Part shown: positions 58,150-58,605 of the stretch, one piece after another
Layout of the letters: each line of letters begins with the position of its first letter
Position numbering within the stretch: the first letter of the stretch is position 1
Origin: a phage
NCBI GenBank assembly: GCA_019338205.1
Contig: GCA_019338205.1_4761.1
Strand: one strand, 5' to 3'
DNA: 64,000 nt
Notes under the pieces: generated by a model
The model's database searches: none
What the model was told of the DNA's origin: nothing
What the model saw: only the letters and a program-made list of their open reading frames with translations
Made by a program: the position numbers and the translations under genes

Positions 58150-58605
58150 ATGATTATTGATACTGTAAAGGGCGATCTCATCGCCCTGTTTAAACAAGGA
58201 AACGGTCATTTAATTCATGGTTGTAATTGTTTTCATACTATGGGCGCTGGTATTGCTGCAAAGATCGCGAAAGAGTTCCCGCAAGCGTTAGAGATTGACA
58301 AGCAAACTTCTCGCGGTAAGGTAGAAAAGCTGGGTGGGTTTAGTGTCTGGACGCATCAAGTTAATGGTTATAACTGGTGCGGGGTGAATCTCTATACCCA
58401 ATTCCGACCGGGCCCAAATGCTGAATATGGTGCTATCCTGAAAGGATTTGAGACTATCAATGATGTTTTTGAAGGTGCTATACAGCCTTTCTATATTCCT
58501 AAAATCGGTTGCGGTATCGGTGGCCTTGAGTGGGAATGTGTAGAAGAGATCATTAATATTGCTACTCCAGACATTAACATTGTGGTGGTTGAATATGACA
58601 AATAA
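58150..58605 (+). CDS. macro-domain protein, TARG1/DarG-like ADP-ribose hydrolase
   Basis: 151 aa; GDL...HGCNCFHTMGAGIAAKIAKEFP and IPKIGCGIGGLEWECVEEIINIA...IVVVEY parallel recalled human TARG1 and bacterial DarG macro domains. Confidence 0.6.
   Translation: MIIDTVKGDLIALFKQGNGHLIHGCNCFHTMGAGIAAKIAKEFPQALEIDKQTSRGKVEKLGGFSVWTHQVNGYNWCGVNLYTQFRPGPNAEYGAILKGFETINDVFEGAIQPFYIPKIGCGIGGLEWECVEEIINIATPDINIVVVEYDK

What the first reader, a model, noticed from the sequence alone, without database searches (positions are those of the whole stretch)
58150..58605. Early-region macro-domain protein resembling TARG1/DarG ADP-ribose hydrolases
The 151 aa product has the two hallmark stretches of the TARG1/DarG macro-domain branch (HGCNCFHTMGAGIA... 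and IPKIGCGIGGLEWECVEEI...IVVVEY). T4 itself is not known to me to encode a macro domain. A phage hydrolase of this kind could reverse DNA or protein ADP-ribosylation, for example counter a DarT-type defence toxin or tune the phage's own ADP-ribosyltransferases. It is followed by three coupled small Zn-ribbon and membrane ORFs (58595-59290) that may be partners.
Basis: partly seen in the sequence, partly recalled or inferred. Interest (0 to 1): 0.7.

Follow-up and report, generated by a model that had tools for sequence, protein, structure and literature searches.

The report
Phage macrodomain Tk.4/AdfM, an anti-DarT2 hydrolase
The gene is real and is a TARG1/DarG-like macrodomain, but it is the already catalogued orthologue of phage T4 gene tk.4, which was recently shown to protect T4 from the DNA-ADP-ribosylating defence system DarTG2, so the finding is correct but ordinary.

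Summary
The 151-aa ORF at 58150-58605 (+) exists and encodes a confident macrodomain: Pfam Macro is above its cut-off, the AlphaFold2 model has pLDDT 97, and the best structural matches are TARG1 and DarG. The window is a Krischvirus (RB49/JSE/Phi1-like T4 relative). The gene is annotated tk.4 ("A1pp phosphatase motif") in near-identical GenBank records.

About 2,700 phage records hold a homologue.

A 2025 preprint showed that a T4 tk.4 knockout becomes sensitive to DarTG2 and renamed the gene adfM.

One refinement: the catalytic Lys of TARG1 and DarG is a near-invariant Gln (Q84) in this phage family. The D125 position is Gly and Asn26 is conserved. This is the SCO6735-type active site, which is also known to cleave thymidine-linked ADP-ribose.

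The three downstream small ORFs are not conserved partners, because T4 carries unrelated genes there. Only the 64-aa Zn-ribbon ORF travels with the macrodomain, into Vequintavirus, and elsewhere it sits beside other hydrolases.

Verdict: already known, low interest.

The parts
58136..58141 (+). Shine-Dalgarno sequence GAGAGG, 8 nt upstream of the macro gene ATG. The gap to the stop codon of vs is 15 nt.
   Evidence: read directly from the sequence
58150..58605 (+). tk.4/adfM orthologue: a 151-aa stand-alone TARG1-like macrodomain, predicted to be a DNA ADP-ribosylglycohydrolase.
   Evidence: ORF; Pfam Macro 28.7 bits; PHROG 335; AF2 pLDDT 97.2; Foldseek matches to TARG1 and DarG with TM 0.78-0.79; annotated tk.4 in JSE and Phi1
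58219..58227 (+). Codons for G24-C25-N26. N26 is equivalent to DarG N22 and SCO6735 N27. G24 is equivalent to SCO6735 V25, whose backbone is proposed to hold the catalytic water.
   Evidence: N26 and G24 are invariant in 72/72 family members; HMMER alignments; mutational data for SCO6735
58399..58401 (+). Codon CAA for Gln84, at the position of the catalytic Lys of TARG1 (K84), DarG (K80) and PhiKZ AdfM (K78), and of the essential Gln85 of SCO6735.
   Evidence: HMMER alignments; MAFFT alignment for the Lys-type proteins; Q in 71/72 family members and K in 1; PhiKZ K78
58507..58524 (+). Codons for G120-C-G122-I-G124-G125, the diphosphate-binding loop. G122 corresponds to TARG1 G123 and SCO6735 G128. 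G124 occupies the TARG1 D125 position.
58595..58789 (+). 64-aa Zn-ribbon ORF (CxxC...CxxC, Pfam PF23903 Phage_zn_bind_2), overlapping the macro gene by 11 nt. It is a neighbour of uncertain relation to the macrodomain.
   Evidence: Pfam 81.6 bits; PHROG 4864; 233 phage records; also sits next to the macro gene in Vequintavirus
58786..59004 (+). 72-aa Cys/Trp-rich Zn-binding ORF (Pfam PF23895 Phage_zn_bind), starting at an ATGA overlap. It is variable cargo of the tk.4-tk interval.
   Evidence: Pfam 116.5 bits; 786 phage records; in RB18 it lies between tk.3 and tk.2 and is noted there as similar to RB49ORF089c
58997..59290 (+). 97-aa ORF with hydrophobic N- and C-terminal segments (probably a membrane protein), found only in Krischvirus.
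   Evidence: PHROG 16027; matches in only 59 records, the same number as hold the whole locus at >=90% nucleotide identity (Krischvirus)
57775..58134 (+). vs (valyl-tRNA synthetase modifier), the upstream syntenic anchor.
   Evidence: PHROG 1256; annotation
59290..59886 (+). tk (thymidine kinase), the downstream syntenic anchor.
   Evidence: Pfam TK 175.7 bits; 53% identity to T4 tk

Best explanation
The gene is the Krischvirus orthologue of T4 tk.4, now called adfM (anti-DarT factor, macrodomain). It encodes a stand-alone 151-aa TARG1-like macrodomain, made from the regB-vs.1-vs-tk.4-tk gene string, which corresponds to the early region of T4.

Proposed mechanism: when a host DarT2 toxin ADP-ribosylates thymidine N3 in single-stranded phage DNA and stalls replication, the macrodomain binds the ADP-ribose in its cleft and hydrolyses the N-glycosidic bond. 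This releases ADP-ribose and restores unmodified DNA. The protein therefore acts as an orphan antitoxin that lacks DarG's toxin-binding domain.

The chemistry is most likely the SCO6735-type route: Gln84, held in place by Asn26, positions the distal ribose and a backbone-held water starts catalysis. It is not likely to be the Lys-dependent route of TARG1, DarG and PhiKZ AdfM.

Shown here: the ORF, the fold, the class, orthology and synteny with T4 tk.4, and the active-site residues.
Taken from the literature: the T4 knockout phenotype and the biochemistry of SCO6735 and PhiKZ AdfM.
Inferred: that this 44%-identical orthologue has the same substrate and role.
For: - Macro fold and class: Pfam Macro is above its cut-off. 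AF2 pLDDT is 97.2. The best Foldseek PDB matches are TARG1 (E 4.7e-11, TM 0.78), T. aquaticus and M. tuberculosis DarG (TM 0.78-0.79), Poa1p, BT1257 and SCO6735. Sequence and profile searches of the PDB return the same set. The only PADLOC and NCBIfam hits are DarG, over its macro part.
- Orthology: the protein is 43.8% identical to T4 Tk.4 over its full length. Both fall in PHROG 335. The flanking order regB-vs.1-vs-[tk.4]-...-tk is identical.
- Function of the orthologue: tk.4 was the single hit of a T4 transposon screen on a DarTG2 host, and a clean knockout was sensitised.
- Active site: N26, G24, G120 and G122 are invariant and Q84 is present in 71/72 members. T4 Tk.4 has the same NLYTQF motif.
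- Biochemistry of the Gln type: SCO6735 has the same Asn/Gln/Gly set, cleaves T-linked ADPr-DNA, protects from DarT, and is inactivated by Q85A and nearly so by N27S.
- Class activity: TARG1-like macrodomains are the hydrolases active on N3-pyrimidine-linked ADP-ribose. A phage macrodomain, PhiKZ AdfM, removes DarT2 marks from DNA in vitro.
Against: - No experiment exists for this protein or for any Krischvirus.
- The T4 evidence is genetic only and comes from a preprint, which says enzymatic removal "seems likely" without showing it.
- Identity to T4 Tk.4 is only 44%.
- The catalytic Lys required by DarG, TARG1 and PhiKZ AdfM is absent.
- The protein lacks the longer Lys-rich mobile loop credited with SCO6735's DNA processivity.
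- A comparative-genomics survey argued that most phage macrodomains target soluble ADP-ribose derivatives rather than macromolecular adducts.
Confidence: 0.75

Rival explanations
1. It processes soluble ADP-ribose derivatives rather than DNA adducts. Candidates are ADP-ribose-1''-phosphate (the "phosphatase" of current annotations, as with yeast Poa1p), O-acetyl-ADP-ribose, or ADPr-based immune signals made by TIR or Sir2 defence systems.
For: Annotations call it a phosphatase or O-acetyl-ADP-ribose deacetylase. Poa1p, an ADPr-1''-phosphatase, is among the best sequence and fold matches. [quoted passage not shown] The neighbouring Zn-ribbon gene sits in NAD/ADPr-metabolism islands in jumbo phages.
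Against: The T4 orthologue has a specific DarTG2 phenotype. The "phosphatase" label derives only from the old A1pp domain name. The active-site set matches SCO6735, a proven T-ADPr-DNA hydrolase. The two activities are not mutually exclusive.
Confidence: 0.1
2. It neutralises DarT2 mainly by binding the toxin (stoichiometric inhibition) rather than by hydrolysis.
For: Catalytically dead SCO6735 Q85A, DarG K80A and TARG1 K84A all still inhibited DarT in vitro, and SCO6735 did so most strongly.
Against: The protein lacks the C-terminal DarT-binding domain of DarG: it covers positions 2-141 of a 338-position model and scores 48 bits against a cut-off of 250. Every residue needed for catalysis in SCO6735 is conserved under strong constraint across 72 diverse homologues. 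This is what is expected of an enzyme.
Confidence: 0.08
3. It reverses or tunes ADP-ribosylation installed by the phage's own transferases (Alt/ModA/ModB type) on host proteins or RNA.
For: The Krischvirus JSE carries modB. SCO6735 and TARG1 also de-modify proteins.
Against: From established knowledge, the T4 Alt and Mod enzymes modify arginine, a linkage that TARG1-class macrodomains are not known to cleave. The T4 screen points to DarTG2. The macro family is present in about 2,700 phage records of many unrelated genera, and I did not check whether those phages encode ADP-ribosyltransferases.
Confidence: 0.04
4. Its main targets are ADP-ribosylated RNA bases (N3-uridine) or products of other ART toxins, with DarT2 being only one of several.
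For: TARG1, DarG and SCO6735 all reverse U-ADPr on ssRNA, and SCO6735 is more efficient than DarG.
Against: No bacterial anti-phage system that makes U-ADPr was found in the papers read. T4, which carries Tk.4, is still restricted by the mRNA ADP-ribosyltransferase CmdT. Adenine ADP-ribosylation by CmdT toxins is described as irreversible.
Confidence: 0.1

Closest known systems
T4 Tk.4 = AdfM (anti-DarT factor macrodomain; HIDEN-SEQ preprint, bioRxiv 10.1101/2025.11.20.689424)
   Same: Both are stand-alone macrodomains of about 150 aa in the same PHROG (335). They share the same genomic slot between vs and tk, the same HGCNCFHTMG, NLYTQF and IGxGIG motifs, and 44% identity over the full length.
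   Different: 56% of residues differ. The genes between tk.4 and tk are unrelated (T4 tk.3/2/1 fall in PHROGs 2008 and 653; here PHROGs 4864, 2306 and 16027). The Krischvirus protein is closer to Vequintavirus macrodomains (68%) than to T4. No phenotype has been measured for it.
Streptomyces coelicolor SCO6735 (PDB 5E3B) and Bacteroides BT1257 (PDB 2FG1): Gln-type TARG1-like macrodomains
   Same: Both have Gln at the catalytic-Lys position, the conserved Asn (N27/N26) and the GCG loop glycine (G128/G122), and neither has the TARG1 Asp. SCO6735 cleaves T-linked ADPr-DNA and protects from DarT.
   Different: Identity is only about 23-26%. The phage protein lacks the 5-residue longer, Lys-rich mobile loop. 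SCO6735 is a chromosomal housekeeping or stress gene, not a phage counter-defence gene.
DarG antitoxin macrodomain (M. tuberculosis 5M3I, T. aquaticus 5M31/5M3E; NCBIfam NF048014)
   Same: Best single-sequence PDB hit (E 4.8e-8). Same fold (TM 0.78-0.79). Shared Asn and GxG loops. Same expected substrate, DarT2-made T-ADPr.
   Different: No catalytic Lys (K80 is replaced by Q84). No C-terminal DarT-binding domain. No adjacent darT gene. The score is far below the equivalog cut-off (48 against 250 bits).
PhiKZ gp104 AdfM (Cell Rep 2026, PMC13309987)
   Same: A phage-encoded stand-alone macrodomain that counters DarTG2. It has been shown in vitro to remove DarT2 ADP-ribose from DNA.
   Different: It is a Lys-type (DarG-like) enzyme with N23/K78 and the motif FPTKDNW. 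It is imported into the phage nucleus. It is only about 23% identical. Two mechanistically different lineages therefore share one name.
Human TARG1/OARD1 (PDB 4J5R/4J5S)
   Same: Best structural match (E 4.7e-11, TM 0.78, 29% identity). It is also able to cleave T-ADPr DNA and U-ADPr RNA.
   Different: The TARG1 catalytic dyad K84/D125 is Q84/G124 here, and the TARG1 Ser at the Asn position is N26 here.

Membership tests
Macro domain superfamily (Pfam PF01661) | Sequence match above the curated threshold | tested here: met
   28.7 bits against a gathering cut-off of 22, covering profile positions 1-118 of 118
Macro domain superfamily (Pfam PF01661) | Three-layer alpha/beta/alpha fold with a central mixed sheet | tested here: met
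   AF2 model with pLDDT 97.2 and alternating strand/helix order. 186 PDB matches at E<=1e-3; the listed matches are macrodomains or designed enzymes
Macro domain superfamily (Pfam PF01661) | ADP-ribose-binding glycine loops (GxG after strand 2; G-x-G-x-G-G phosphate loop) | tested here: met
   M31-G32-A33-G34 and G120-C-G122-I-G124-G125. G34, G120 and G122 are invariant in 72/72 homologues
TARG1-like (ALC1-like) macrodomain class | Closest sequence and structural neighbours are TARG1, DarG, SCO6735, BT1257 and Poa1p rather than the MacroD, PARG or viral nsp3 classes | tested here: met
   Profile against PDB: BT1257 6e-16, TARG1 1e-14, SCO6735 6e-14, DarG 4e-13, against nsp3 2e-3. Foldseek gives the same order
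TARG1 proper | Catalytic dyad Lys84/Asp125 | tested here: not met
   Gln84 and Gly124 at the aligned positions. Q in 71/72 and G/A in 72/72 family members
DarG antitoxin (NCBIfam NF048014 equivalog) | Catalytic Lys (T. aquaticus K80) in the FPTK motif | tested here: not met
   YTQF aligns with FPTK
DarG antitoxin (NCBIfam NF048014 equivalog) | C-terminal DarT-binding domain and a full-length equivalog score | tested here: not met
   151 aa in total. The match covers model positions 2-141 of 338 and scores 48.4 bits against a cut-off of 250. PADLOC DarG positions 3-141 of 329
DarG antitoxin (NCBIfam NF048014 equivalog) | Operon with a darT toxin gene | tested here: not met
   The neighbours are vs, two Zn-binding ORFs, a membrane ORF and tk. 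None of the three downstream small ORFs hits a PADLOC or NCBIfam model
SCO6735-type (Gln) T-ADPr hydrolases | Asn27, Gln85 and Gly128 equivalents, without the TARG1/DarG Lys | tested here: met
   N26, Q84 and G122.
SCO6735-type (Gln) T-ADPr hydrolases | Extended Lys-rich mobile loop after the Gln | tested here: not met
   HMMER places a 5-residue insertion in SCO6735 and a 6-residue one in BT1257 relative to the phage family
SCO6735-type (Gln) T-ADPr hydrolases | Hydrolysis of thymidine-linked ADP-ribose on ssDNA | not testable with these tools
   Needs a biochemical assay
T4 Tk.4/AdfM orthologous group | Full-length homology and the same phage protein family | tested here: met
   43.8% identity over 150 of 151 aa. 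PHROG 335 for both
T4 Tk.4/AdfM orthologous group | Conserved position between vs and tk in the regB-vs.1-vs-tk.4-...-tk string | tested here: met
T4 Tk.4/AdfM orthologous group | Required for growth on DarTG2-expressing hosts | not testable with these tools
   Shown only for T4

The most novel reading that the evidence does not exclude
The macrodomain and the overlapping 64-aa Zn-ribbon ORF may form a two-gene orphan-antitoxin module, with the hydrolase paired to a small toxin- or DNA-binding partner that stands in for DarG's missing C-terminal domain. This module would have moved as a block between Krischvirus and Vequintavirus.

A separate and more likely refinement is that the T4-type AdfM lineage works by the lysine-free, Gln/Asn/water mechanism of SCO6735. 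In that case phages would have recruited two mechanistically distinct macrodomain lineages (Gln-type Tk.4, Lys-type PhiKZ gp104) against the same toxin. The probability given here is for the two-gene module reading. I would put the Gln-mechanism refinement at about 0.6, with interest of about 0.3.
Probability: 0.08. Interest if true: 0.5.

Novelty: already known. Interest (0 to 1): 0.2.

Why it matters
It matters mostly as confirmation. A reader working from sequence alone correctly predicted a counter-defence role that was shown experimentally for the T4 orthologue in late 2025.

Three practical points follow:
- "Phosphatase" or "hypothetical protein" labels on tk.4 homologues in roughly 2,700 phage records could be updated to "AdfM-like DNA ADP-ribosylglycohydrolase".
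- The T4-type AdfM family carries a Gln rather than the Lys assumed from the DarG comparison. Mutational studies should therefore target Q84 and N26, and inhibitors or mechanistic models built on DarG K80 may not transfer.
- For phage-therapy host-range prediction, the presence of this gene predicts resistance of Krischvirus phages to DarTG2-carrying E. coli. This still needs direct testing.

Tried and rejected
1. DarG membership. Only the macro half matches, the score is far below the cut-off, and there is no Lys, no C-terminal domain and no darT neighbour, so this was rejected.

2. Downstream ORFs as conserved partners.
- T4 Tk.3, Tk.2 and Tk.1 belong to different PHROGs and do not align with them.
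- RB18 has five ORFs in the interval.
- The 97-aa membrane ORF occurs in only 59 records, all Krischvirus.
- The 72-aa ORF is in 786 records and the 64-aa ORF in 233, against 2,732 for the macrodomain.
- None of the three hits a PADLOC or NCBIfam model.

3. Whether the gene directly upstream of the Zn-ribbon homologue in jumbo phages is a divergent macrodomain. It is not: it is an Acb1-like 2H phosphoesterase, and in KpS8 the upstream gene is an HD-domain protein.

4. MAFFT alignment of the seven reference macrodomains misplaced the NMIGQH motif of SCO6735 and BT1257. For that position I relied on the two independent HMMER alignments.

5. The promoter and terminator scan gave counts no higher than shuffled sequence, so I make no claim about the transcription unit beyond gene order and strand.

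6. I did not run the representative-library search, a second structure prediction, or the metagenome and genome scans. The answer did not depend on them.

Full report
**Observation**

The window carries an ATG-to-TAA ORF of 151 aa at 58150-58605 on the + strand. A GAGAGG ribosome-binding site lies 8 nt upstream, and the ORF starts 15 nt after the stop codon of the preceding gene.

The ORF is clearly a gene:
- Pfam Macro (PF01661) matches end to end at 28.7 bits, against a gathering cut-off of 22.
- PHROG 335 matches at 1e-61.
- 378 homologues were found in the large protein collection.
- An AlphaFold2 model built on 72 diverse homologues has mean pLDDT 97.2 and pTM 0.91.

**What the window is**

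The 3.3 kb around the gene is 98-99% identical in nucleotides to RB49/Phi1/JSE-type phages. These belong to genus Krischvirus, family Straboviridae, and are T4 relatives.

In JSE and Phi1 the gene is annotated tk.4. The RefSeq note reads "contains A1pp phosphatase motif".

The flanking genes are regB, vs.1 (SLT domain), vs, then three small ORFs and tk. T4 has the same string, regB-vs.1-vs-tk.4-tk.3-tk.2-tk.1-tk. T4 Tk.4 is 43.8% identical over the full length and falls in the same PHROG.

The A1pp (macro) match of tk.4 orthologues was reported in 2006 (PMC1524935). Homologues occur in 2,732 of 50,697 phage records. A survey found macrodomains in 41% of myoviruses (PMC9503650).

**Class of macrodomain**

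Single-sequence and profile searches of the PDB return M. tuberculosis DarG, BT1257, SCO6735, TARG1, Poa1p and T. aquaticus DarG, with E-values down to 6e-16. Viral nsp3 macrodomains score about ten orders of magnitude weaker.

Foldseek with the model puts TARG1 first (E 4.7e-11, TM 0.78), followed by DarG (TM 0.78-0.79). The only hits in the defence-system and NCBI naming libraries are DarG models, and only over their macro half.

**Active site**

The protein does not carry the residues that define TARG1 or DarG catalysis.
- In the HMMER alignments, TARG1 K84 and the Lys of DarG's FPTK motif align with Gln84 (motif NLYTQF). SCO6735 and BT1257 also have Gln at this position (motif NMIGQH).
- TARG1 D125 aligns with Gly124.
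- Across 72 homologues with 39-83% identity, Q84 is present in 71 and Lys in one. N26, G24, G120 and G122 are invariant.
- T4 Tk.4 has the same motifs.

This is the SCO6735-type site. For that enzyme, Q85A abolishes activity and N27S nearly does. The enzyme cleaves thymidine-linked ADP-ribose from DNA and protects Streptomyces from DarT. A water-initiated mechanism positioned by Gln was proposed (PMC9411070).

The phage family lacks SCO6735's longer Lys-rich mobile loop.

**Function**

A 2025 preprint (bioRxiv 10.1101/2025.11.20.689424) ran a transposon screen of T4 on a DarTG2-expressing host. It found tk.4 as the single hit, confirmed that a clean knockout is sensitised, and renamed the gene adfM. 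Enzymatic removal of ADP-ribose was inferred, not shown.

Earlier work had noted that T4 lacking adfA and adfN stays resistant to DarTG2, and predicted a further factor (PMC11825919).

Independently, the macrodomain gp104 of PhiKZ was also named AdfM. It was shown in vitro to remove DarT2 marks from DNA (PMC13309987). That protein is of the Lys type, with N23/K78 and the motif FPTKDNW. Neither paper's text mentions SCO6735 or the Gln substitution.

TARG1-like macrodomains as a class are the hydrolases for N3-thymine and N3-uracil ADP-ribose (PMC13036486).

Taken together, the best explanation is that the window gene is an orphan-antitoxin-like DNA ADP-ribosylglycohydrolase that counters DarT2. 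I put confidence at about 0.75. The remaining uncertainty comes from the 44% identity to the tested orthologue and the lack of direct biochemistry for the Gln-type phage proteins.

**Rivals**

- Soluble ADPr-derivative processing (the "phosphatase" label; Poa1p similarity; the argument) is possible as an additional activity. It does not explain the T4 phenotype.
- Toxin binding without catalysis is conceivable, because dead SCO6735 still inhibits DarT. It fits poorly with the strict conservation of catalytic positions and the lack of DarG's binding domain.
- Tuning of the phage's own transferases cannot be excluded by gene content, because JSE has modB. However, those enzymes make arginine linkages (established knowledge), which this class is not known to cleave.
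- T4, which carries Tk.4, is still restricted by the mRNA ADP-ribosyltransferase system CmdTAC.

**The downstream ORFs**

All three are real and translationally coupled, but they are not conserved partners.
- T4's tk.3, tk.2 and tk.1 belong to other protein families.
- RB18 has five ORFs in the interval, one of them a homologue of the 72-aa Zn-binding ORF.
- The 97-aa membrane ORF is found only in Krischvirus (59 records).
- In T4 only tk.4 scored in the DarTG2 screen.

The 64-aa Zn-ribbon ORF (PF23903) is the one exception worth noting. In Vequintavirus it again lies about 260 nt downstream of a macrodomain, with 77% and 68% identity respectively. That is much closer than Krischvirus is to T4, which suggests the two genes moved as a block.

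Elsewhere the same small protein follows other genes:
- an Acb1-like 2H phosphoesterase inside an NAD/ADPr island of Mimasvirus jumbo phages, together with NAMPT, an NMN adenylyltransferase/ADP-ribose pyrophosphatase, Sir2 and Nudix-cREC genes;
- an HD-domain protein in a Mydovirus.

So it associates with counter-defence or nucleotide-hydrolase genes in general, not with the macrodomain specifically.

**Verdict**

The gene is an already catalogued orthologue of a gene whose function has been reported. The only new angle is that the T4-type AdfM lineage has a lysine-free active site.

Interest is low (0.2).

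Noticed in passing
window 58595-58789; L003 3711-3902; L004 3974-4210; L006 3929-4171; L005 3938-4123: The 64-aa Zn-ribbon protein (Pfam PF23903) sits immediately downstream of a different small hydrolase in different phage lineages. In Krischvirus and Vequintavirus the upstream gene is a macrodomain. In Mimasvirus GAP32 and CBB it is an Acb1-like 2H phosphoesterase, followed by Sir2 and Nudix-cREC, with NAMPT and an NMNAT/ADPR pyrophosphatase gene upstream. In Mydovirus KpS8 it is an HD-domain protein. It may be a generic component of NAD/ADPr counter-defence islands.
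   Followed up: partly
window 58150-58789 versus L003 3001-3902 (Escherichia phage phiWec189, Vequintavirus): The Krischvirus macrodomain is 68% identical to the Vequintavirus one but only 44% identical to T4 Tk.4. The adjacent Zn-ribbon ORF is 77% identical. This suggests exchange of a two-gene block between unrelated myovirus groups. The Zn-ribbon ORF is unannotated in phiWec189 and V18.
   Followed up: partly
literature; PhiKZ gp104 versus T4 Tk.4 and window 58399-58401: Two independently named "AdfM" proteins differ at the key catalytic position. PhiKZ gp104 has Lys (N23/K78, DarG type), while T4 Tk.4 and this protein have Gln (SCO6735 type). Neither paper's text mentions this.
   Followed up: yes
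window 57784-57812 (+): A near-consensus sigma-70 promoter with an extended -10 (TTGACA, 17 nt, TG-TATGAT; 11 of 12 matches) lies just inside the 5' end of vs, about 340 nt upstream of the macro gene. The overall count of promoter-like sites in the region is no higher than in shuffled sequence.
   Followed up: no
window 47444-47914 (+): The same + strand gene arm carries the Acb1 (T4 57B) anti-CBASS 2H phosphodiesterase (PF23474, 174 bits), about 10 kb upstream of the macro gene.
   Followed up: partly
window 55115-55813 and 54612-55028 (+): An RlaP-like nucleotidyltransferase of the RNA-repair pathway (the nrdC.11 homologue, PF10127) and a GrcA-like glycyl-radical cofactor (vs.6) lie just upstream of regB.
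   Followed up: no
window 1-64000: ARAGORN finds no tRNA genes anywhere in the window.
   Followed up: no
window 58762 versus 58786: The mechanical ORF call starts the second small ORF at 58762 (80 aa). However, the Pfam and PHROG matches begin at residue 13, an ATGA stop/start overlap lies at 58786, and JSE annotates a 72-aa product. The shorter start is therefore more likely.
   Followed up: yes
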